Shown piece by piece: positions 4,061 through 47,688 of a stretch of DNA of 49,625 nucleotides (position 1 is its first letter; every line of letters begins with the position of its first letter). Under the pieces are notes generated by a model. That model saw only the letters and a program-made list of their open reading frames with translations. It was not told where the DNA came from and did no database searches. Both the position numbers and the translations under genes were made by a program. Source of the stretch: Girardia tigrina (taxonomy: Eukaryota); the NCBI GenBank assembly GCA_001938485.1, contig MQRK01246887.1, positions 1 to 49,625 on the forward strand, read 5' to 3'.

Positions 4061-4793
4061 CCGTAAAAAATTAATTCAAATAATTTTAATTATAAATTTT
4101 GTTTCAAAAAAATTTATAATTTAAATATAAATATAATTTAATAAATATAAAAAAATATAAATATAATAAAAAATATATATAAATATATTTTATTTTCATT
4201 TTCCAAATAAAACTAATTAAAAATAAATAATTTATTTTGTATTTATTTTGATTTTATAAAATTCTATAAAAAATTATAAAAACCAAAGAAAATGATCAAA
4301 ATATTTCTAATTTCCTGATTTTTATTAATTTTTTTTCTGTGATTTTTTTAAACCGAAAAGACGAACACAAATTTCATGTGTAAGTGCAAATAGAAAAAAA
4401 AATTATTTCAAGTAATAAAAAACAGATTTAATAAAATTATTTTTGTCTAAAACTAATAATTGGGGAAATAAAATTTTTTGGATTTTTTTTGTTTTTTCAA
4501 AGGGAATTTCAGTGATTATTTATTGTGATAATGTTGTATCAGGAATAACAGAAAAAACAAATGAGAGAAGAGATAAATGCCATTATTTCCAACCAATAAA
4601 TTTAAAGAATGAAAAAATTTTCATTAATAAGTGATGTTATTTATATTATTAAAAAAATTTTTTCATGCTTCAATCGTATTTATAAGGGCACTTTTAATTG
4701 ACATTCTTTTGTAATGGAAGCTTCTTTAACTAAAAAGACTTACCCCAATAACTAGAACATCAAGTACATCATCAACAAACAAAAAGAAGCGTG

Positions 4794-5846
4794 ATGGATA
4801 AACATAATTTAACGGAAATTCTTTTGAGAATAAAAGCAAAGGAAATGATTGAATATGAAGAGATAATTGATTTTTTCGGTTCAAAAAATAAATCCTCTCC
4901 TTGTTCATATGCAATTTACGCGTGGAATATGACTGGAATGTATAACCTACCTCCACAATGTTGGCCAGAAAGATACCATCTAGTAACTTTGATTATTCTC
5001 TGTATCTCATTGACAATTCTTTTCCTTGGTACCTTTATTGGAAACGCATTAATGATATTCGCATTCCTTTTAGTAAGAAGACTTCGGACTCCGTGTAATA
5101 TGTTGATTATTAATTTAGCCGTAACAGACTTGATGGTTGGAATCATAGTTATTCCGATGGCAAGTATTTATCAGATAAAAGGATATTGGATTTTTAATGA
5201 TTATATTTGTAGTGGATTTATTTTATTTGACGTTCTTCTATGTACTTCGTCTATTTTAAATTTATGTGCTATTTCCGTTGATCGGTATTTTATCATAACT
5301 CAACCGTTTCGATACGCTACTCACAGAACTACTAAAAGAATGTTATTAATGATTCTTATTGTTTGGTTAGCTTCAGCTTTAATAAGTGTTCCACCATTGT
5401 TTGGTTGGAATAATTCTAAGTCCAGATATACATGTGACTATAGTGAAAATCTCGGCTACCAAATATATGCTACATTCATTGCTTTCTATTTACCATTAAT
5501 AGTAATGCTGGTTCTATATGGACGCATTTTCAGGCTTGCTAATTATATTGTTAATCAAGATCAGATTGCTGGTAAACCAGTCAATCTAACAAATAACTCC
5601 CAATTCTCAAAGGATTTTCTTCATAACAATGATCCCCATTCGAAAAATCAAAATAACAATGAAAGTTGTAAATTAAATCTACCAATTATCCGAGTCAATT
5701 TTGCCGAATCCGACGAAGATTCCATTAATAATATGAGAAAAAAAGATAATACATTTAAAAAGAATACCGAAGCAAAAGCCATCAAAACGTTAGGAGTTAT
5801 AATGGGTTGTTTCACAATTTGTTGGCTACCGTTTTTTATTGTCCAA
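4794..5846 (+). CDS. HTR7: Serotonin receptor, 5-HT7-like class A GPCR; large coding exon (TM1-TM6), partial gene
   Basis: Motifs: GN in TM1, NLAVTDL, DVLLCTSSILNLCAISVDRY (D3.32 amine-binding Asp and DRY), WLASALISVPPLFGW, YQIYATFIAFYLPL and EAKAIKTLGVIMGCFTICWLPFF. Phase-0 donor CAA|GTAAAT at 5846/5847; TM7 NPxxY is absent from this exon. The subtype call rests on motif recognition only. Confidence 0.9.
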
Positions 5847-6500
5847 GTAAATTTTTGTTGAATTGAAAAAACATTAAATTTATTCAATTAATTTTGTATT
5901 AAAGGATTAAAGAAAATAAAATTCTTAAAATATAAAACTGAAAAAAAGTTTCAAATAAAAAATATTTTAAATTATTTATATTTTATTTATCGTGAATTGA
6001 GAAATTTTCGGGATTAATTAAAGCATTAATATTTTTTCTTTGTTATTAATAATAAATACTGTTTATTTTTGTTTGTGATACCGAAAGAAAAAAATTGAAT
6101 AATTAATGTGTCGCAAGAAGAGCGTTATTTCCTGCCAGGAAGACATCCGAGCACGCGTTCTTCTACCACGTCTAAATTGGAAAAAAACAATACAGGTGAA
6201 TCTCGACTTACAACGTATCTGAGCTATAAAGAGATTTTTCAATACATTTTTTTATATTTATTATTTTAATAATATTACTTTGGATATATTTAGAAAGAAA
6301 TGCATTTTGCAAAAATTAATTTTTTAGCTAAAAAATAAATTTTTAAAACGTTCAAGAATACAATAAAGAGTACAAAATAATCATAAAAACCATATTCTGG
6401 AGGATTTAGAGCACATAAAAATATTAATCCTAAGAATATAGGCAAAAAATAAATGACATCCAAAGTTCTAATCTTCATCTTGGATAAATCGAAAAGAGTT

Positions 6501-8172: not shown

Positions 8173-8949
8173 TATATATTATTGATTGAAAATTTAATTA
8201 AGGCAAGTGGAGAGCTATAAAAAAAATCTTAAAACATGATTTACCTTATAGAAACTTCAGAGTAAATCCATCTTAATTCTTTAAATCTTTAATTAAAATA
8301 AATAAAAAATTATATAATCAAATATTAATTCTTATATTTAAACGAGTCAGTTGATCCATTGAATAGTTTATGTCTTAGAAGATATTTTTAATGAATGAGT
8401 TACATTTAATTAATAATAATAATTATTATTTTACACAAATTTAGAAAATAAAATTTTTATTTTCATAAACTTCATTCTACAAAAACAAAATTTTAATATA
8501 AATATTACTACTATTTTCCATAGGCATTGAATTTTTAATTATTTTAATTGTATTTTCATTTAATCATTTCAATAATATACAATTGAAAAATAAAATAAAT
8601 TTAAATAAATACATCAACTAAAATTATTTATTTCTTTATTTTTAAAATTTGTATAATTTTTACATACTTAATTTGAAAAAGTTTCGTTTAAATTCACGAG
8701 AATGAAAAAAATTGCATTAAACATAAGAATCATTTTAAAATATATTTTCGAAATATATAATAATTTTAAACTAAACAAATTTTAACTATTTTGTAAGATT
8801 AATTCTACATAAGATATTTAATGTGAATTATTAATGATAATGTTAAACAAATTAATTTCTGATGATAAAGAATTTAATTTATTTCTCATTAATATTAATT
8901 GTGAAAAGTATCATGATATATATAAAATTTATTTATAGAGATGCATATA

Positions 8950-10624
8950 CAGTGCTGGAAAAAAGTCTTTTGACAGTGCACTTTTTTGCGAGTTTTAGTG
9001 AAAATATATTACCAAAAACAGTTTTTCAACCCAATTTTTTAATACAACCTTATAAACGTATATTTTATCTATTTTAAGTAAAGAATTAATAGAGTGAGAC
9101 TATTTAAGGATATTATGTGAGCATACATAATGCTTACATAACAATATGTATGCATGGTCATGTATACACATGTGAATATGCTCTTATATATACAGTGCAT
9201 GCGAAATAAGCTGCGTCACTTGTATTGCATATGTTGCATTATCCTTCTTTCTTCCCTCATCAACCAATCAAATCGCGATTTTTTGCTATGTCTGGAAAAC
9301 AAGTTGACCAAGAGATTCGAGGTGCTATTATAGCCTTACACTGCAAAACAAGTTTGTCAACAAGAGAAATTGCAGCTCAATATGGAATTTCCCATTAATC
9401 TGTTGCCAATATAATCAAAAGATATGAATCCGAAGGCAATACTTCAATTAAAACAAGATCAGGCAGGCCTAAAGCAACCACGCCCCGAGTTGATGCATTA
9501 ATAAGAAGGCAAGCAGTGAAAATCCCTTTCTTACCTCTGCCCAAATCAAGCTCAATCTGGTAGTGCAGTGCAGCAATGTTACTACACGTATAATAAGAAA
9601 TCGCCCGTGTAAGAAATTCAAAATGCCAGCCCGTAAAGCTATAAAAAACCGATCATTACAAGTGCAATGAGAAAGAATTGATTACAATTTTGTGAAAAAT
9701 ACACGAATTATACGATTAAACAGTGGAAAAAGGTTATGTTCAGTAAAGAAAGCTCATTCCAAATCAACAATTACCCAAATCAGACAGTTCAAAGACCAGT
9801 TGGCTCATCACCGGTGAACCCAAGGTACACAAAGAAGACTAGCAAGCATCCAGCTTCTGTCATAGTTAGGGGCTGTTTTTTCCCACAATGGCCGAGGGGG
9901 GCTTACACTTCTCAATTCAAACCAAAGACTCAATACTGATGGTTATATCCAGATTTTAGAAGAGAAGTTGGCTCATATTATGTGCATCCATGTTTGTACA
10001 ATTTTCCAGCAAGACAATGCCCCTTGCCATTGTTCAAAAAAGGCGCTGATATGGTTTCAGGACAACAACATTGAGCTGCTTGACCGGCCATCCAACAGCC
10101 CAGACCTGAATACAATTAAACATCTGTGGTCCAACATGAAGAGGAAACTCAGTGAGATTGAAATAACATCTATAAGTCAATTAAAAGAGGAAATAAAACG
10201 AGTATGGTGCCTAGAGACCACTACAGAGGAGTGCCAGAAACTTGTTGAGAGCATGCCACGCCGTATCGAAACTGTTATTCGAAACAAAGGGTACCCAACC
10301 AAATATAGAATTTGATTGGCTTAAACTATGATCTTTTTACCCATTTTATCAATTCATGTTACTATTTTATTCATTTTATGCCATATTATCCTGATAAACA
10401 TTTAGCTTGATATTTTATTGTTTTTAAATAAAAGTGTATCATTCAATGATTTCTCTCTTTTGATTGAAATTAAAAAATCCTGGTATTAATTCTTTACTTA
10501 AAATAGATAAAATATACGTTTACAAGGTTGTATTAAAAAATTGGGTTGAAAAATTGTTTTTAGTAATATATTTTCACTAAAAATCGCAAAAAAGTGCACT
10601 GTCAAACGACTTTTTCCAGCACTG
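8950..10624 (+). mobile_element. Tc1-family DNA transposon, full length, defective transposase (9288-10315)
   Basis: ~140-bp TIRs starting CAGTGCTGGAAAAAAGTC, with TA TSD. Transposase motifs RSGRPK, FQQDNAPCH, PSNSPDLN and LVESMPRRI..VI..KGYPTKY. Stops and frameshifts are present. Confidence 0.96.
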
Positions 10625-10639
10625 TATATTAATATTATT

Positions 10640-10890: not shown

Positions 10891-11134
10891 ATCGAATCAC
10901 ATTTCACTAAAAATGTGATTATCTATTACAATGTGTTAAATATAATATGATAAGTCATTCATCATAACATATCTAACAAGTCTTTCTCTAAATTAACAAA
11001 TTAAGTTTTGTATTTACCCATAAGTGCAGTTTTTTATTTTATTTTTCAACTATTTTCCATTTGTTTTCATTTTTTGTGTTACACGCTGCAATTTCTTCTT
11101 TTATCTCACTAATACATCCTATTTATATGATTTT

Positions 11135-11527
11135 ATTCCATTCTTTTTATTAGCTTACTTTCTATGTATATAGATATATATGTATCCATAGAATTTAGGA
11201 AACTATTTTTGAAGGCATTCTAATCAATCAATTTTCATCAAACTTTGCAAAGTTACTCATTCTTGATGACAATAAGTGATAATGTGAAAATTTGATCAAA
11301 AGAAACTTTTTAAGGTCCTAAAATGCGAAAAATCGGAAAATTCGGAGTTCCCGAACATTATTAATTGAAAAAGATCTACTTATAAATTATAAGTAGTTTA
11401 TATTATTTTTTTAATTTTTTATTGTTTTATTTAAAATTATTTTTTTGTAATTAAAACTTTGTTGGCAATGTAGAGTTCTGTCTGCATAAAAAATGGATAC
11501 AAAAAATAATTTTGTAATTTACTAGTT
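11135..11527 (-). mobile_element. HINE/DINE-1-like repeat, inverted copy of 2401-2815
   Basis: The reverse complement aligns by eye with 2401-2815 (ATAATTTATAAGTAGAT, TGTTCGGGAACTC, TTATTGTCATC.AGAATGAGTAA, GAAAGTAAGCTAATA). Confidence 0.65.
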
Positions 11528-11660
11528 GTCATCAACTTAAGTCGGAGCTTTGCTAGCTTCATCTTTCAACATTTTCCTTAATAGTCAATAAGCATAGAAA
11601 AAGTTTGATAATTTTATCTTACTTAAACTATTCACTTATAACATTTTTTGAGTTAATCTA

Positions 11661-12956
11661 TTAGGTTGAGGAATAAGTTCCCGCCGTTTTTTGAATTTTT
11701 AATCAATTTAATATTTAAATCAATTTTTTTTGATGTAATGTTATATGTTCTTTGAAAGCTATTGTTTTGCTCTAAAAAATGGTTTATTTTGTTTTTTTAT
11801 TCATATTAATTTTTGTCGATTTTTAGACCATTGAAATAGAGTGTCAAGTCGACAAAAATGACCATTTCCGACACCATCTATTGTTTGCGTATAATCGAGG
11901 CGCCAAAGCCGCAGACACTGCCCGAGAGTTTTGTGCTGTATACTGAGAAGGTGCTATAGCTGATAGAACCGCTCGTGATTGGTTCGCAAAATTTAAAATT
12001 GACAATTTTGACCTCAAGGATGCACCTCGTTCACGACGACCAAATTAATTCGATGAAGAGTGTTTGAACAAACTTTTGCATGAAGACGCGCATCAAACCA
12101 CTCGAGAATTGGCGGAACAAATGGATTGTGATCAAAAAACTGTCGTGAACCATCTGAAATCAATGGGAAAAGTTCAAAAAATGGGAGCTGGGTCCCTCAT
12201 CTTTTGAAGGAAAACAACAAAAACCAGTGATCCACAATTTCGGTGAGTTTGCTTGCCCGTCATCGCTCTACTCACGGTCATAAGCAACAATTTCTTTATC
12301 GAATTGTAACGGGTGATGAAAAATTGTGCCTGCATGTCAACATAAAACAACGCAAAGAATGGCGTAGCCGAGAAGAACATTCGACACCGCGAGCAAAACA
12401 GTATCTTCATCCACGAAAGACAATGCTATGCGTTTGGTGGGGTTGGGAAGGTATTATTCATTATGAATTGCTTCCTCGAAACCAAACAGTGAACGCAGAA
12501 CTTTATGTTCAACAGCTGCATAGACTCAACGCCGCTATAAGACAAAAACATCCGAATGTACAACATGTCGTTATTTTGTAAAACGACAATGCACGTCCTC
12601 GTATTGCCAGAATGACAAAAGAAGCCATTCAAACGCTTGGTTTATAAGTGTTACCGCACCCTCCGTATTCACCTGACTTGGCTCCATCTGATTTTCATCT
12701 TTTCCATTCGCTTTCTAACGCTTTGCGTGGTATTTCGTTCAACAATGATGGAGAACTGCAAGTTTGGTTGGCTGAATTCTTCGAATCAAGACCGGGTGAT
12801 TTCTACCAAAGGGGCATTGAAAAACTCGTTGAACATTGTGAAGAAGTCGTGAACAATGGCGGAGATTATATTTGTGATTAATTTGTAGTAACTTTTTTGT
12901 TAAAAAATAAAATTTTAATTTTTCTAAAAACGGCGGGAACTTATTCCTCAACCCAA
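11661..12956 (+). mobile_element. mariner (DD34D) transposon, full length 1296 bp, defective transposase (~11836-12878)
   Basis: TIRs TTAGGTTGAGGAATAAGTTCCCGCCGTTTTT with TA TSD. Motifs WVPH (frameshifted), IVTGDEK, DNARP and HPPYSPDLAPSDFHLF. The start ATG is mutated to ATA and there are several stops. Confidence 0.97.
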
Positions 12957-13479
12957 TACCTTTCCAAATGCAAATATTGGATCATTAGAATAAACTCACA
13001 TTTCTTTAAGCTTATTCCTCTAATTCATGATGGATTTTTATTTTACCAATGTCGCTTTCAGTTTTCATTATGGTTTCTTTTTACTTTATCTTAATTCCTT
13101 TGAATATGACAGAACTTTTCAGAAATTCATCTAATCTTTACATGGATACATCAAGCATATTTGTATCTCTAATGCTTGAAGTTGCTTCTTTTGTAGGTCA
13201 CCAGTTTAAAACATTAAAATAATTTTTAAAACATTTATTATCATTACAATTCAAACTGCCTTTACAACAATTTTCATTTATTTCTTCCCTATTTGACATC
13301 AATTTTTATTGTTTTATTAATTTTTAATAACACATTGAATAAAATATATTAGTTTTAACAATATAACTTATTACTTTTATTAGTTTTATATTTAATAAAT
13401 TTAAAGATAATAAAAATTTTCAAAAAAAATGTTGATGTTAATATGTAAAAACAAAAGCATTCCATTTGTTAAATAAACA

Positions 13480-26188: not shown

Positions 26189-26417
26189 CCGTAAATTCCG
26201 GACTATAAGCCGCACTTAAAAACATGAAATGAGTCATAATTTAAGAGTTTTGGTTTAAAATCCGTTGCGGTTTATACGTTTTAATAATGTTTTTATTTGT
26301 TTTATAATGTTTATAATGTTTTTTTATATAATGTCATAGCTTATAATGTTTTTTTGGGAAAATCAGGCAATGTGCGGCTTATAATACGGTGCGCGCCTTA
26401 TAGTGCGGAAATTACGG
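26189..26417. mobile_element. pogo/Tigger-type MITE
   Basis: TIR CCGTAAATTCCGGACTATAAG / CTTATAGTGCGGAAATTACGG with TA TSD. Internal TTATAATGTTT repeats. Confidence 0.88.
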
Positions 26418-26424
26418 TAACTTG

Positions 26425-27118
26425 ATTCCCAGACAATTTGGTAATTGACAACTGGGTAATGAGACAATTGTGTTATTGGACAATATATATTCAATATCAA
26501 TTGTTGCTCACAAAATACAGATAATGTTGTTGCGTTGAGTTGTGACTGTTTATCCACAACGCTTAAATCCAAGAATAATCCAAATTTTGATCTCATTTAT
26601 AAATTAGTAAATTAAAAAAAAACAAAAATTATCATTAACAAATTCTTCATCAGCAGTAAACGCTCGGCACAAATAAAATTTTACCATTAATTCAAATCAT
26701 CATCATAAAAAAATTTTCATCTGAAACAAATTATTATCATTAAATAAAATATGTTTCTTTAAAGGAATTTCGTTTTAATAATAAAGCATTTTTCACTATG
26801 AAGTCTTCTATGACCAACAATTTTTTAATATCAATAAAATCTTATCATTTTTCTTAATTTTTTCTATCATCAATAACAAAAAACAATAATACCTTTTTAT
26901 TGATAACCAAATAACTACTGCTCCTACATTATATATAACGATTTCAAAAACAAGTGGACTAAATTAAATTAATAAGAAATAATATTAATGTAAAAAATGA
27001 AGATAAAGAACTGCTGTTTAAATAAGATAAAGAGAAACAATTGATATTCAAAATATATTTTGCCAATTACACAATTGTCCAATTACTTAATAATCCATTA
27101 CCCAATTGTTTGGTCACC
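26425..27118. mobile_element. Long-TIR non-autonomous element (Mutator-like)
   Basis: ~80-90 bp imperfect inverted termini built of ACAATTG.GTAAT repeats (26430-26510 vs 27030-27118). Confidence 0.65.
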
Positions 27119-29032
27119 TTTATATCTATAGCAATTATAAGTTATGGCGCTTTTAGAATATTGAAATTTTCATTTTAAATACGATAGATAATGTACTAAT
27201 GTTCGGACCTTATTTCTCCTTTAAAAACTGAATTTGATTAGATTTTTGATTCATTGATTTTATAATTTATTTATTTGTTTTGACGTTTTCATTTAAGTTT
27301 AGTTCTAGTCTTAAACCTGAAGCGCGTCATACCTTTTATGAAACTCAGAAGATAGCACTGATGGAAGATGTTCAGAAAATTTTTACATAAGCGACATAGA
27401 AGTGCTGTTGTTATAAATGAGAAGGGGTTTTATTTCTCCCCTATGTCTGTGAAGGGAAATCATCGTACATGAGTAGACTCTGGTGGTGACCGGCCGCCAA
27501 AACCTAGGTATATTATTGCCGAAAAATCGCATATAATTCTGGCAATAAACTTTTGCGGTGAAAATTATTTTAAAGTGCTAAATCACGGCATAAGTCAATC
27601 CACAAATATATTCATTTTGTCAGAAGGGTACTTTCTTCAACACGAATGAGATTGGTAGAGTTTTTGGGTTAGCAATCAGTTATAAACTATCTTGAGATCA
27701 ACAATTTGCAAGGGAACCAACAAAAGCTTAATATTTGTAATTATGATGACTTAACGTGCCAAGCGTGGCTGCAGAACCATAATGCGAGTGAGGAGTTTTC
27801 GGATCGATGGAAATCAAAATTTTATTTTAATTTACTTTTGATTTTCATGAATTCTTTCAATTTTAATTGATCGGCCGATATTGTCCGTCTTCACGAATCC
27901 TCATCGTTACAGTAAAATAGGATTGAAAATTTTGGATAATCTATTTTTAACCGACCACAATGTCAACAAAATTTGTGAGAAAGGTGTTAAGACGTCTTGA
28001 GATCTTGATTACGATTTTTTGATTACTTCAACGAGTCCTAGCGGTAGAAAAACGAGTTCCGTCTGAGGATCAGCTGCGGACCGCGATTAAACTTTCGATC
28101 GTCATCGAGACTCTCAGCGGTACCATCCAATTCGTAACATATATCTTGAAGATTCTTCTGGCCTTTTTCGTTACTCATCACTGGCTACAAGCTGTAGCCT
28201 CTTTAAAATAATCGTTTTTCGTTTAGACATTGACAAATTAATCAGTTTATTATTCTTAATATAATCAGACTCAATTATCGGTGAATCGATCGGTTTACCA
28301 TCGATTTCCAATTTCTAATTGTATATGGGACAATGTAGAAATGTGTCTGCTCATGTGAATTGTATTTACTCTCTCGTGTTATTCATCTATCCAATCACAA
28401 AAATCCATGATATCTTATTGCTAATATGAAATAGATTATTGAAAGAAAAAGTCAAATTGTGAATATTTCTTTATTTTTCATTTTATTTTTATTTTCAAAG
28501 CATAACTCAAACATGCTGTCTCTTACACAAACGCCTCAATATTAAAACAGCAGTAAAGGCCTGTTAGGGATTTTTTGGTAAACTTAATTTTTGAAAATTT
28601 TAAATTGAAAATCATATTTATAGTTAAAATAAGTTTAAATAATACTAATTAAAATAAATTTTTTTAGTAAGAACGAACTAATAATGAAGTTTCTATAAGT
28701 AAAAAAAAATATTCTTTAGAATAATTTAATTTCGTTAACAATAATTAAATGTAAACAATAGTTTAAGAAAAGTAATTTATAATAGAAGTTACAAAATTAT
28801 GATTAAATAAAAAAAACAGATTGGGATTTAATCTTCGTAAAAAAACATTTAAAGTTATTATTTATTATACTTAAATTATAAAACTTAAATTGACTAAAAA
28901 TTATATACCAATATTTATATTTCAAATACTATATCTGATCATGCTAAAAACAATCTTCCTCATAAATTTGTTTAAAAAATCATTATTTGTTAGAAATAAA
29001 ATTCGGTGTTAATGAATTCTAATTTTGATTAA

Positions 29033-29115
29033 CCTTCATCCGTCCCTCGGGTCTTTTTCGACCCAAAATGACTATACACTTTTGTATACAGTCGATTTGA
29101 GGGACGGATGATAGG
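29033..29115. mobile_element. piggyBac-type mini-MITE (83 bp), same family as 25293-25527
   Basis: Same TIRs (right TIR has a 1-nt insertion), TTAA on both sides. Confidence 0.92.
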
Positions 29116-29809
29116 TTAAAAACCAGACAAGGCCTTTCCACAATTTCCTTCGTTTTCTAATTAATTAATAATATATTTATTTATTTACTTTTTATTAAAA
29201 TAGTTAAAAAAGTTTTTATTTTAATATTAAATTTTAACTCTTAAAATATGCATATATTTTTGATTTAAAATATTTACACTTTCATTTAAATGAATGCGTA
29301 ACAACATCTTTGATTATGAATATATTCTTATTTTGTGTTAAACAAAATAAAAGTTTTTAAGAAAGTTTTAGTTACCCCAGTGAACTTGATTATCAGATAA
29401 TAATTAATGTCATATGCCTTTTCCTAGACTTTTATTGATCCTTGTATCAATGGATTACAGATTGTCAACTGAACAGTGTCAAAATAATGATCCTCAAGGG
29501 AATTGCTGAAATATTTTTAAAATATTTTGATTTGAGAATGATAGGTGACTAGAATTTATTTTTACAGACTGAGAGAAGTTCGGTTTGTGGATGATTAAAA
29601 TCATTAATTTGATAATGATTATCAAAATTTGTTGAGTATTATTTGTCTTTGATTGGTCTATATAACAATATATGAATGATATCAAAGTTCAATTAAGTAA
29701 AAATAATAAATAATTGCAATATACTTCAACGCTCCAAGTAATCTTAACATTATAATCAATCACATAACACTTGCCATATTTTCTTTCAGTTATTCATTTG
29801 AGAACAATC

Positions 29810-30540: not shown

Positions 30541-30859
30541 CAATTAGTTCACGAAACGCAATCTTAAATAATTACCCTATTAACTACAAAATATTTTAGG
30601 AAAACTAAATTTTAATGAGTAACACAATTCGTGATTATTGTTCAGAAGTAAGGATTTAATATTTGTAAATTTAGTAAATTTATGTGTGTTAGAATTTAAA
30701 AAATTGAATAAAACAAGTTGAAGCTTGCTTTTTTAAAATTTTGTATTATTTTAGTGCATGATAATTAATGAATGAGTGTTTTTTAAAGAATTAAAATAAA
30801 ATTCCACAATTTGTGCTCGACGGCTTCAGAGAACGTAAATAAGTTATTTTTGGACTATA

Positions 30860-31340
30860 AATTCTGGTTGTCAGTCAATAATGATGATCCGAACTAGCAT
30901 TCGGAGAGTTGATCGGGGAGCCGAGGAAGCCAGCTGTTGGGATCGAGAAATTTCCCAATCGACACCAGGCCAATTCATTAAGGGGGCACTGAGTCTGATA
31001 GAAAATTTCTCGGGATCTGAAATAAACTAAAATGATTATTAAATAAATATAATATTAATTAATTAAAATTAACCCTAATTGATTTTGGACTTTGATCTGA
31101 AATAAAAAATATGATTATTAAAATTAATTGAATAAAAAGCTTACCTAAGTGATTTCACCTTTGATCCTGAAATTAACAAAAACAAATATTATATATGTAA
31201 TTAGAAAACTTACTTGATCTATCTGACCTTTGATCGTTGTTCATCTAAATGAAAATTTTGTTATTTTTATTTGATTAAAACAAAAACTTACTTTATTGAT
31301 TTGGAATTTGTTGTCGATTGATAACGGCAGGGGCTTATAG
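30860..31340 (-). other. Putative spliced micro-exon transcription unit (4 mini-introns) with a long hairpin in the last exon
   Basis: Minus-strand introns: 31245-31291 (GTAAGT..TTTAG), 31167-31213 (GTAAGT..TTTCAG), 31097-31144 (GTAAGC..TTTCAG) and 31017-31073 (GTTAAT..TTTCAG). Internal exons are 31, 22 and 23 nt. Upstream CTATAAG at 31340-31334. Confidence 0.6.
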
Positions 31341-31639
31341 TACCTGTCGAAACTGTTGACACAAAGTCCAGCGATCTCGAAATTTATGTGAAAATTTCAA
31401 AAATCTAATTACTATAAATTCGTTTGAATCTGTTATTTGTTCAGAAAGTTTTTTGTCTAATTGTTGATTACAAATTAATAAATTTTTCTCTCTTCAGTTT
31501 TTGTGAGTTTTTAATTGTAATTTTTTTTGAGGTTGATGGAGTATAGATATAAAATGGACATATTCTAAAATATATTGCTGGGAGCCGATCAGGTGATAGG
31601 TACCGGCAGGTACTCAGTGCCTGCAGTGAGTATTATCGA

Positions 31640-32107
31640 TCAGGCAGGTAATATGAAAAGATCTTGAAATGGAATTGAAGATAGCTGATCAGTTGATAGT
31701 TGCCTGCCGAAAACATTGGGGAAAAGCCCGGTGGAGATAATTTTCAGAAGGAAAATTGACAGACAAAAATGGTATAGTAACAATAGATCACCGTCGGGGG
31801 AGAAAAAGGAATATACGGAAACAACTACATGTCGCTCATTTAATATCGGAGACAAAGTATGGTTGAAGAAGAAGATAAAAACTAAATCGGATGAAAAATG
31901 CGAGGGACCTTATAAAATAGTGAGAAGATTCACGACAGAAGTTATCGATTAGAGGACGAAAATAAAAAACAAATAGTACGAAATGGAGAGAAGATCAAAA
32001 ACTTTAAAGAAAGGGGGAATGTTAGGAATTAATAGTAAACGGAAAATTTTTGAAATAGGCAATCGAAAATAAGTTAAATTAGTTAAATAAATATAATTTT
32101 ATAAAAT
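31640..32107 (+). mobile_element. Gypsy integrase C-terminus, polypurine tract and truncated LTR
   Basis: GKSPVEIIF.R, FNIGDKVW and EGPYKIV motifs, paralogous to 7-393. PPT AAAGAAAGGGGGAA (32006-32019) is followed by TGTTAGG. Confidence 0.85.
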
Positions 32108-32388
32108 ACCGGTTTAACAACAAATAAAACTTTAGTAATTAAAGTCCGCTTAAAGTCCGTTGAGCTTATACGTTTTTATAATGTCTTTATTTGTTTTATA
32201 ATGTTTATGATGTTTTTTTATATAATGTCTTTATAATGTTTTATATATACTTATAATGTTTTTTTTGGGAAAAGCAGGCAATGTGTGGCTTATAATACTG
32301 AAATATAGTGCGGAAATTACTGTAACTAGAATGTTGTTGCATTGAGTTGTGACCGTTAATCCACAACGCTTAGATCCAAGAATAATCA
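32108..32388. mobile_element. Second copy of the pogo-type MITE plus adjacent fragment of the Mutator-like element
   Basis: 32160-32325 matches 26270-26419, and 32329-32388 matches 26523-26580. Confidence 0.75.
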
Positions 32389-37043: not shown

Positions 37044-37259
37044 TATTTAAAAAACTTTCATGATTCATTTTATTTAATACTTGCAGTTTTTAAAAAAGAA
37101 GAAATATTTAAATTTTTGTTGAATTTTATGAATACGAAATCCATAAATTATCTAATTTAAGGATTTTGTACTCATAAAATTCAACAAAAATTTAAATATT
37201 TCTTCTTTTTTAAGAACGGCAAGTATTAAATAAAATGAATAATGAAAGTTTTTTAAATA
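37044..37259. repeat. Long near-perfect palindrome (~107-bp arms, 2-nt loop)
   Basis: The arms are reverse complements with about 6 mismatches by my count. Centre TAAATTA-TC-TAATTTA at 37151/37152. Confidence 0.93.
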
Positions 37260-46180: not shown

Positions 46181-46792
46181 ACGATTTAGTAATAATCTAT
46201 GCGATGGAATTAAGCAGATTAAATAGAACTAAAGATTGATCTTCTTTGAACTCATAATTGAACTACAGACAAAATAAACTATTTAATAATTACCAAGTAA
46301 GTAAATTCATTATTTATTAGTTTAACTACTCAATAAATAATTTTAAAAAATATATAAAAATAATATTTGGATTTTAACTTTGTAATAAACATATTTTTTC
46401 GCATTTTAGGTAAAAAATAAAAATTGATATATTTCGCCATTTTTACATTTCCTTTTGCACATTTCTATTTTCGCCTTTAAAATGTTATTTTATTTCTGAA
46501 TTAAAGTAGAAATGTTAAAATCAATGTTAATTAAACTTAAATTTTAATATTTTAATTTTATAGCATTAAACAATGTTGTTATAATTTTTCCAATAGAAAT
46601 AAATAAAATAAAAAAAAATAATATTTATCTTTCCTTTTCAAATTTGTTTTAGACATTTTTGTTATAACAAAATATAATAATAATAACAATTTATCAAATA
46701 TAAATTTATTCAAAAAGATTTTTAAAAATTCAGAAAAAGATGCAAAATTATTTATAAAACATTCGATACGAAATCGCGTTTCTTTGTCAAGT

Positions 46793-47688
46793 ATGACAAA
46801 CATTTCTGAATATTCTAAGGTTGAAGATATTGGTGAAGGTATATTTGGAATGGTTTACAAAGCTTTTCATCAAGAAACAAATATGATTTACACAATCAAA
46901 GAAATATAAAATGACGATTGTTTTGATATTTCAACTATAAGAGAAATACAAATTCTGAAATCTTTGGATCACAAAAATATTGTCAAGGTAAAAGATGTTG
47001 ATGAAAGGTATGATGATGAAGGATTTTACACACCTTTTTTATATTGGAATTATGTGATCAGACTCTTTTACGATGGATATCTCCAAAATCGACTTCTCCT
47101 CATTCTTATTCAATAATGAAACAATCTTTGACAGCACTTAATTACATGCATGAAAATAATTTTATCCATCGAGATTTGAAACCAGACAATATTATAAAAG
47201 ACAAATTAGATGTAATGAAAATTGCAGACTTTAGATGTGCAAGAATAATAAAGGATTGTAAAGTTAAGAAAATAGCACAATATTCCCCCGATACTGGAAC
47301 GATGTGGTATTATCCTCCTGAAATATTGCTACACGACGAATTTTACGACGAATCTGTCGATATTTGGAGCATGGAATACATTTTTATAGAGATTCTTGGT
47401 AAAGATGTTCTATTTCCAATAGAAAATGAAAATTAAGCAAATTTAATTTCAAAAATGTGTGGAAGTATAAATGAAGATTGGTCACAAGGATATGAAATAA
47501 TGGAAAATTATAAAATTTATACAAAGTCAATGAACACTATTTTAAAAGATTATTTAGATGAAGCCACTGAAAATTCTAACATAACATCATTTCTTACTCA
47601 AATGATTTCTTTAAAAATTTCAAAAAGACCATCTGCAAAATGACTTTTAAATGAACATTTTTTTAATGTACACAATATTTTATTGTAA
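46793..47688 (+). pseudogene. Intronless CDK-like (CMGC) protein kinase pseudogene
   Basis: IGEGIFGMVYKA, ISTIREIQILKSLDHKNIV (PSTAIRE-like), IHRDLKPDNI, KIADFR (DFG lost), GTMWYYPPEILL, VDIWS and KRPSA. In-frame stops at ~46908, 47434 and 47641, and a frameshift at ~47040. Confidence 0.9.

What the first reader, a model, noticed from the sequence alone, without database searches (positions are those of the whole stretch)
30941..31017. Pre-miRNA-sized hairpin at the start of the last exon of the micro-exon unit
Seen: on the minus strand, CGAGAAATTTTCTATCAGACTCAGTGCC pairs with GGCCTGGTGTCGATTGGGAAATTTCTCG. This gives 10 perfect bp, then ~16 more with G-U pairs and single bulges, and a ~13-nt loop. 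The G-U pairs work only on the minus strand, the same strand as the splice sites. A second small stem TCCGAA/TTCGGA follows (30888-30905). Inference: a pri-miRNA host transcript or a structured leader of a mobile element. I do not recognise either arm as a known miRNA.
Basis: partly seen in the sequence, partly recalled or inferred. Interest (0 to 1): 0.7.

Follow-up and report, generated by a model that had tools for sequence, protein, structure and literature searches.

The report
Retrotransposon end hairpin, not host microRNA
The hairpin is real but is the tip of the terminal repeat of a many-copy, retrovirus-like jumping gene of a flatworm, and it likely acts as a signal for copying that element, because it sits beside a backwards tRNA-matching site that stands where the usual second-strand start signal is missing.

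Summary
The hairpin is real (minus strand, 24 bp, z -4.3). It is not in a host gene: it is the first 80 bases of the LTR of a dispersed planarian retroelement (family A; 942 first-look candidates; 19 of 28 full copies are solo LTRs with exact 4-bp target duplications). Other copies continue into a tRNA-Pro primer site and gag, so the element's sense is the window's + strand; hairpin preference and the four intron-like blocks are antisense. A sister family (B, autonomous, at least 666 copies) keeps the hairpin with changed arm letters, a two-sided pair change and the same loop; a distant family (C) lacks it. A and B also lack a polypurine tract; in its place lies an inverted copy of the tRNA-Pro site, next to the hairpin. 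Best reading: a cis-acting end signal, likely part of a mirror-image priming module (inferred). A small-RNA precursor in an LTR-borne antisense transcript remains possible; no small-RNA reads were available, no clean splice joint was seen, and loop-over-arm conservation argues against a microRNA.

The parts
30935..31707 (+). 5' (U3) part of a ~1.3-kb LTR of retroelement family A; begins TGTTGGG at 30935, cut off at about 31707
   Evidence: 29 other loci align from 30935 (+/-6) to 31647-31709 at 88-93%; flanks differ at 30935; full copies end CCCAACA with 4-bp target duplications
30944..31012 (-). The hairpin: 5' arm 31012-30985, loop 30984-30972 with AATGAAT at 30979-30973, 3' arm 30971-30944
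30935..31016 (-). Predicted last exon of the antisense unit, from the acceptor to the LTR end (82 nt)
   Evidence: sequence; exon lengths in 11 copies; splicing not shown
31017..31291 (-). Four predicted GT-AG introns (31291-31245, 31213-31167, 31144-31097, 31073-31017) around micro-exons of 31, 22 and 23 nt; the exon+intron block is triplicated
   Evidence: self-similarity of about 70% at 31094-31235; one such block in family B; GT/AG letters 0 of 16 polymorphic
31583..31707 (.). Tandem, internally palindromic LTR repeat units (enhancer-like, inferred), variable in number among copies
30806..30934 (.).
31708..32030 (+). Flank: tail of an apparently unrelated LTR element (integrase-like end, purine tract, TGTTAG)
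   Evidence: translation resembles a gypsy integrase tail (recalled); no Pfam hit; no family A copy continues into it

Best explanation
The hairpin is the terminal stem-loop at the U3 end of the LTR of a planarian Ty3/gypsy-derived retroelement, and it likely works as a cis-acting replication signal on the minus-sense strand, next to the site where second-strand DNA synthesis would start. Shown: LTR identity, orientation, tRNA-Pro primer site after the U5 end, conservation of the fold in sister family B, absence of a polypurine tract before the 3' LTR, and an inverted tRNA-Pro-like site in its place, 5-6 bases from the LTR end. Inferred: on the minus strand the order hairpin - CCCAACA - short spacer - tRNA-matching site mirrors the order U5 hairpin - CCCAACA - spacer - primer site on the genomic RNA, so the same kind of structure would position a primer (tRNA-Pro, or a tRNA-like piece of the element's own RNA) for plus-strand synthesis and fix the LTR end. 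The window's copy is a truncated insertion and is probably inert.
For: Termini and target duplications: 19 of 28 distinct full copies have an exact 4-bp duplication, 4 have one mismatch, and the 5 without are joined to internal sequence. Primer site: L073 carries a perfect 19-nt complement of the tail (with CCA) of this genome's tRNA-Pro, followed by gag on the same strand. Integrase lies directly before the 3' LTR in five B loci; related reading frames show gag, a fusion-glycoprotein-like env, protease, RT, RNase H, integrase. Fold kept in B: z -5.13, all 21 of 21 B copies z < -3; upper stem 95.5% paired over 48 rows with an A-U to G-C change between families. 3' junctions: longest purine run in the 20 bases before the LTR is 3 in 11 of 11 A and 3-4 in 25 of 25 B junctions, 7 in the one C junction; the inverted site is conserved in 12 A and 30 B junctions. 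Family C has antisense intron-like blocks but no terminal hairpin (z 0.04, -0.17, 1.82, 1.23), so the hairpin goes with the inverted site, not with the intron pattern.
Against: No experiment or read data bears on function. The link hairpin/inverted site rests on one contrast (A+B against C, and one C 3' junction). The inverted site matches the tRNA in two blocks with a wobble in A and worse in B. Strand preference is modest: antisense more stable in 37 of 46 A and 17 of 21 B copies, but the controlled test of wobble-making changes was not significant (7 of 52 against 4 of 52 sites, p 0.22); as DNA the window's two strands fold alike (-13.2 and -13.7). The one two-sided change is a single event inherited by 19 rows. 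A common A subfamily carries a C-A mismatch in the stem (16 of 47 copies). The hairpin also begins right after an acceptor-like AG in both families, which fits an RNA role.
Confidence: 0.45

Rival explanations
1. The LTR drives a spliced antisense non-coding RNA whose last exon is a Drosha/Dicer-type hairpin; its small RNAs would be fully complementary to the U3 end of the element's own genomic RNA (self-silencing) or act on host genes.
For: Stem of about 24-33 bp with a 13-15-nt loop; strict intron pattern 3 times on the antisense strand against 0.07 in shuffles; GT/AG letters 0 of 16 polymorphic against 33 of 168 inner intron sites (p 0.036); all 51 of 51 B copies keep at least one of two AGs before the hairpin; predicted spliced forms have only short reading frames, 2-56 codons in 11 copies; shared variants favour G-U over A-C, 15 to 3 pair types, before control. 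Precedents: U3-encoded miRNAs of bovine foamy virus (PMC5807749, passages) and hairpin small RNAs from Sirevirus LTR palindromes (PMC4728375, abstract).
Against: Loop letters are near-invariant while arms differ between A and B, the reverse of the usual miRNA pattern (established knowledge); family C has the intron pattern without the hairpin; B shows no regex intron and has a weak donor; the three A introns are copies of one block; contigs of likely-RNA runs run unspliced through the introns and no clean GT-AG joint was listed; no Rfam or literature match.
Confidence: 0.24
2. The structure acts on the sense genomic RNA (3' end: packaging, export, dimer or RT pause signal), or the conserved loop is a DNA-level transcription-factor site in U3 and the fold is secondary.
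For: The sense strand folds too: z -4.43 in B, 21 of 21 B and 16 of 46 A copies z < -3; the sense RNA is the one that is replicated; the inverted site could simply pair with the primer site in the same RNA.
Against: Antisense fold is the more stable in 54 of 67 copies; the window's sense strand is not significant; a DNA site would not need a two-sided pair change.
Confidence: 0.2
3. A neutral by-product: an old local inverted duplication at the LTR end, carried along without function.
For: Within family A only 1 of 20 pairs shows a two-sided change; family C does without it.
Against: A and B differ in arm letters and stem length yet both pair, while most of their LTRs align poorly or not at all; position against the LTR end is fixed.
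Confidence: 0.08
4. A host microRNA gene with a micro-exon host transcript.
For: Size and shape of the hairpin.
Against: It is the end of a repeat with 942 first-look candidates, target duplications, primer site and gag; the window's copy is truncated and no closer to a special form than other copies.
Confidence: 0.03

Closest known systems
Burro / GYPSM1 gypsy-like LTR retrotransposons of dugesiid planarians (PMC6431247, passages read)
   Same: Planarian host; gag with two or three CCHC knuckles; fusion-glycoprotein-like env between gag and pol in the related families
   Different: Much shorter (A: about 1.3-kb LTR, gag plus one unknown frame, no env or pol seen in L110/L111); no BIR, ankyrin or MATH domain found in the frames scanned; no direct sequence comparison with Burro was possible; the passages say nothing on LTR hairpins, antisense introns or primer sites
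Canonical Ty3/gypsy cis-elements: primer-binding site and polypurine tract (PMC4558846, passages read)
   Same: TG...CA ends, 4-bp target duplication, tRNA primer site after U5
   Different: No polypurine tract before the 3' LTR in A or B; an inverted tRNA-Pro-like site and a long hairpin instead; 9-base spacer between U5 and the primer site
Bovine foamy virus U3-encoded pri-miRNA (PMC5807749, passages read)
   Same: Pre-miRNA-sized hairpin inside U3 of an LTR
   Different: That one is a ~122-nt Pol III transcript with sequenced miRNAs; here the hairpin is at the U3 tip, favours the antisense strand, follows a splice acceptor, and no small RNA is shown
Palindrome region of maize Sirevirus LTRs (PMC4728375, abstract read)
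   Same: LTR-borne hairpins and palindromic tandem units, proposed sources of self-silencing small RNAs
   Different: Copia-type plant elements; palindromes in the cis-regulatory middle, not one terminal stem-loop with a conserved loop
LTR-driven antisense RNAs of HIV-1 and HTLV-1 (PMC5807749, passages read); Rtl1-antisense miRNAs (recalled, no call)
   Same: Antisense transcription of a retroelement, possibly self-regulating
   Different: Here the whole predicted spliced unit lies inside U3 and has no sizeable reading frame; expression not shown

Membership tests
Ty3/gypsy LTR retrotransposon | LTR with TG...CA ends and 4-6-bp target duplication | tested here: met
   19 of 28 exact, 4 of 28 one mismatch
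Ty3/gypsy LTR retrotransposon | tRNA primer-binding site after the 5' LTR | tested here: met
   19-nt complement of the tRNA-Pro tail in L073, close variants in about 18 other A junctions
Ty3/gypsy LTR retrotransposon | Polypurine tract directly before the 3' LTR | tested here: not met
   longest purine run 3-4 in 36 of 36 A and B junctions; hence filed as a variant that works like Ty3/gypsy, not as a plain member
Ty3/gypsy LTR retrotransposon | gag, then protease - RT - RNase H - integrase in this order | tested here: inconclusive
   met in distant family C (L182); B has gag, env and integrase in separate contigs; A shows gag but no pol
Ty3/gypsy LTR retrotransposon | Two LTRs around the internal region with one shared target duplication | tested here: inconclusive
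   both junction types seen many times, no complete element in one contig among those fetched
Burro elements | env in frame between gag and pol | tested here: inconclusive
   env and protease in one frame in family C (L188); env after gag in B-type loci; absent from A copies seen
Burro elements | Giant size (about 30 kb) and BIR/ankyrin/MATH accessory domains | tested here: not met
   A spans under 10 kb in L110; none of these domains in 21 frames scanned
Animal microRNA gene (criteria recalled) | Hairpin with 16 or more paired bases and a loop of 8-40 nt | tested here: met
Animal microRNA gene (criteria recalled) | Discrete ~22-nt reads from both arms with 2-nt 3' overhangs | not testable with these tools
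   only assembled contigs of long-RNA or DNA runs were offered
Animal microRNA gene (criteria recalled) | Mature arm and seed more conserved than the loop | tested here: not met
   between A and B the loop is near-invariant and the arms differ
Animal microRNA gene (criteria recalled) | Match to a described family | tested here: not met
   Rfam none; six arm motifs in 0 papers; none in 12 of 15 supplement files of PMC7722302
Ginger-type DNA transposon or MITE (features recalled) | Long terminal inverted repeats, no primer site or gag | tested here: not met
   only 7-bp inverted ends; primer site and gag follow the repeat

The most novel reading that the evidence does not exclude
A clade of planarian env-bearing retroelements has replaced the polypurine tract by an inverted copy of its tRNA-priming module (hairpin, LTR end, spacer, tRNA-Pro site), so that both DNA strands are primed by host tRNA-Pro, and the same U3 end doubles as the last exon of an LTR-internal spliced antisense RNA.
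Probability: 0.25. Interest if true: 0.85.

Novelty: new variant of a known kind. Interest (0 to 1): 0.5.

Why it matters
At the least it corrects an annotation trap: a pre-miRNA-like hairpin with micro-exons that is really an LTR end present in hundreds of copies, each of which may offer antisense splice sites to neighbouring genes. If the mirror-image module is what primes the second strand, it would be an exception to the rule that LTR elements start plus-strand DNA at a polypurine tract; my searches found no such case in the held library. If instead the hairpin yields small RNAs, it would be an element-encoded self-silencing device in an animal whose stem cells depend on transposon control.

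Tried and rejected
Rfam: no match in the window at gathering score or in 30800-31750 at E up to 5. The direct repeats at 26255-26580 and 32150-32387 first looked like an LTR pair around the unit; they are short separate repeats and do not bound it. DNA-transposon (Ginger/MITE) reading dropped once primer site and gag were found. Reads: 11 runs were listed, none raw, none small-RNA; 4 of the 11 were laid. Contigs cover the introns unspliced in X1 and X3; 7 joints were listed, none a clean GT-AG removal; one (X3, depth 3.65) skips the body of predicted intron 2 at its donor with 7 other letters between, and one (X3, depth 12.7) skips the micro-exon region with unknown letters between; both could be genomic variants of another species, so neither is counted. 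X6 (share 0.08) is no evidence. The uncontrolled G-U excess did not survive the control for mutation bias; the first acceptor count in B had an index error and was redone. The intron pattern is not significant in B or C by regex. A pattern search for further families with the inverted site returned only B (21 matches); the pattern excludes A by its spacing. L239/L248 are insertions in unrelated DNA, not a C 3' junction. The fission-yeast paper 10.1101/2022.12.06.519325 (passages) did not describe tRNA-primed plus strands. The paper that named Burro was not held. Earlier findings of this scan: nothing by sequence or words; eight notes by place, none on this element.

Full report
Observation. 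The sequence is as described. On the minus strand 30941-31017 folds into one hairpin of 24 pairs with a 13-nt loop, -29.1 kcal/mol, z -4.29, 0 of 200 shuffles as good; the plus strand gives z -1.37. Three of 4914 windows of the same size fold as well. Rfam has no match. The host is a dugesiid-like planarian: a GPCR exon in the window is 73% identical to Schmidtea mediterranea GCR023.

What it belongs to. A search of the own genome with 30780-31420 gave 942 first-look candidates; of 40 scored, the 39 other than the window match at 93-95% and stop within a few bases of window 30935. Beyond that base the flanks differ. Full copies are 0.8-1.55 kb, start TGTTGGG on the window's + strand and end CCCAACA; 19 of 28 distinct copies have an exact 4-bp target duplication, 4 one mismatch, and the 5 without one are joined to shared internal sequence. 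After the right end, copies read into a tRNA primer site that in L073 is the exact 19-nt complement of the tail of this genome's tRNA-Pro with CCA, then into gag on the same strand. So the repeat is an LTR, its sense is the window's + strand, and the hairpin is the first 80 bases of U3. The window's copy is cut at about 31707.

The element. Family A copies L110 and L111 show gag and an unknown frame but no env or pol before the 3' LTR: A is likely non-autonomous. A sister family B (5' internal DNA about 70-80% alike; at least 666 exact matches to a hairpin pattern against 0 for the control) has env-like frames after gag and integrase directly before the 3' LTR. A distant family C (gag 30-35% identical) shows env, protease, RT, RNase H and integrase in order. 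Env between gag and pol is the layout described for planarian Burro elements (PMC6431247, passages). No complete element was found in one contig.

Conservation of the hairpin. B has a hairpin at the same place: z -5.13 antisense, -4.43 sense. Its basal arms differ in letters and length, the upper stem keeps a bulged U and has an A-U to G-C change, and the loop AATGAAT is nearly invariant over 48 aligned rows (29 of 46 A and 19 of 21 B hairpins were given). That change is one event. Within A only 1 of 20 pairs has a two-sided change (10 copies). The antisense fold is the more stable in 37 of 46 A and 17 of 21 B copies. Shared variants are G-U rather than A-C type by 15 to 3, singletons 18 to 22, but with only Watson-Crick sites and the rest of the LTR as control the excess is 7 of 52 against 4 of 52, p 0.22. 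The strand of action is therefore suggested, not shown. Family C has no terminal hairpin on either strand.

The micro-exon unit. Four intron-like blocks lie antisense in U3. The strict pattern occurs 3 times against 0.07 in shuffles, but the exon+intron block is triplicated in A and single in B, where the donor is weak and the regex finds none. In 40 A copies 0 of 16 GT/AG letters are polymorphic above 10%, against 33 of 168 inner intron, 12 of 77 micro-exon and 12 of 82 last-exon sites (p 0.036 against inner intron, 0.09 against all others). All 51 B copies keep one of two AGs before the hairpin. C shows similar antisense blocks by eye, not significantly by regex. Predicted spliced forms hold frames of 2-56 codons in the 11 of 28 copies parsed. 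In 4 of 11 listed runs, all contigs, the introns are covered unspliced and no clean joint appears. Splicing remains likely for A, unproven.

The missing purine tract. Before the 3' LTR the longest purine run in 20 bases is 3-4 in 36 of 36 A and B junctions and 7 in the one C junction. Read on the minus strand, the LTR end is followed after 5-6 bases by a G-run and a two-block match to the tRNA-Pro tail, conserved in 12 A and 30 B junctions. The U5 end has its own stem-loop before the true primer site. The two ends are thus mirror images: stem-loop, CCCAACA, short spacer, tRNA-matching site. The polypurine tract is the standard plus-strand primer (PMC4558846, passages); searches found no report of a tRNA-like site in its place, within a library that lacks most subscription papers.

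Mechanism. Most likely (0.45) the hairpin is a cis-acting signal of that end module, acting on the minus-sense strand to position the second-strand primer and define the LTR end; identity as an LTR end is shown, the role is inferred, and the supporting contrast with C is single. Second (0.24), it is a small-RNA precursor in an LTR-driven antisense RNA, as known for foamy-virus U3 (PMC5807749, passages) or proposed for Sirevirus palindromes (PMC4728375, abstract); size and the acceptor fit, loop-over-arm conservation does not, six arm motifs were in no paper and in none of 12 of 15 supplement files of the Dugesia japonica small-RNA study (PMC7722302, part 1 of 2 of file 8 read; three files unsearched, and the species differs or is unknown). 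Third (0.2), it acts on the sense RNA or as a DNA site. Neutral by-product 0.08; host miRNA gene 0.03. Planarian transposon small RNAs are mostly antisense piRNAs (PMC8532177, passages), so any reads here must be told from those.

Verdict. Observation confirmed, interpretation partly supported. A new variant of a known kind: an LTR end of a Burro-like Ty3/gypsy clade with a conserved terminal stem-loop, antisense intron-like blocks and an inverted tRNA-like site in place of the purine tract. Interest 0.5; the tRNA-primed-plus-strand reading has probability 0.25 and would deserve 0.85.

Noticed in passing
3' internal/LTR junctions, e.g. L003, L052, L091-L095, L152-L155: No polypurine tract; an inverted, two-block match to the tRNA-Pro tail, conserved between families A and B.
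   Followed up: partly
L154:1288-1821 (+), L158:451-975 (-): Some family B LTRs carry a sense reading frame of 175-178 codons with coiled-coil character and no convincing Pfam match, like an LTR-borne accessory gene.
   Followed up: partly
L234 and L198:5412-6140: Distant family C LTRs show alternating GC-rich blocks and 35-60-nt AT-rich blocks bounded by GT and AG on the antisense strand, with no sequence likeness to A (not significant by regex).
   Followed up: partly
L199, L200 (U5 end): Family C has a second primer-site-like motif inside a U5 stem-loop, about 35 bases before the true tRNA-Pro site.
   Followed up: no
window 4752-5861 (+): Serotonin-receptor-like GPCR exon, 73% identical to Schmidtea mediterranea GCR023; used to place the host among dugesiid planarians.
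   Followed up: partly
window 31689-32030 (+): Tail of another LTR element with a normal purine tract, abutting the truncated LTR.
   Followed up: partly
window 30806-30934: Piece of an older dispersed repeat (49 first-look candidates) into which the LTR inserted; identity unknown.
   Followed up: partly
window 29029-29117 and 37044-37259: Two other strong inverted repeats, the second with 107-nt arms at 94%; they look like miniature DNA transposons.
   Followed up: no
window 8945-10629; 1900-2826 with 11122-12958; 46622-47436: Tc1/mariner-like relics with terminal inverted repeats, and a broken CDK-like kinase frame (names recalled from the translations).
   Followed up: no
L176, L178: tRNA-Pro(TGG) genes in tandem at about 647-base spacing.
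   Followed up: no
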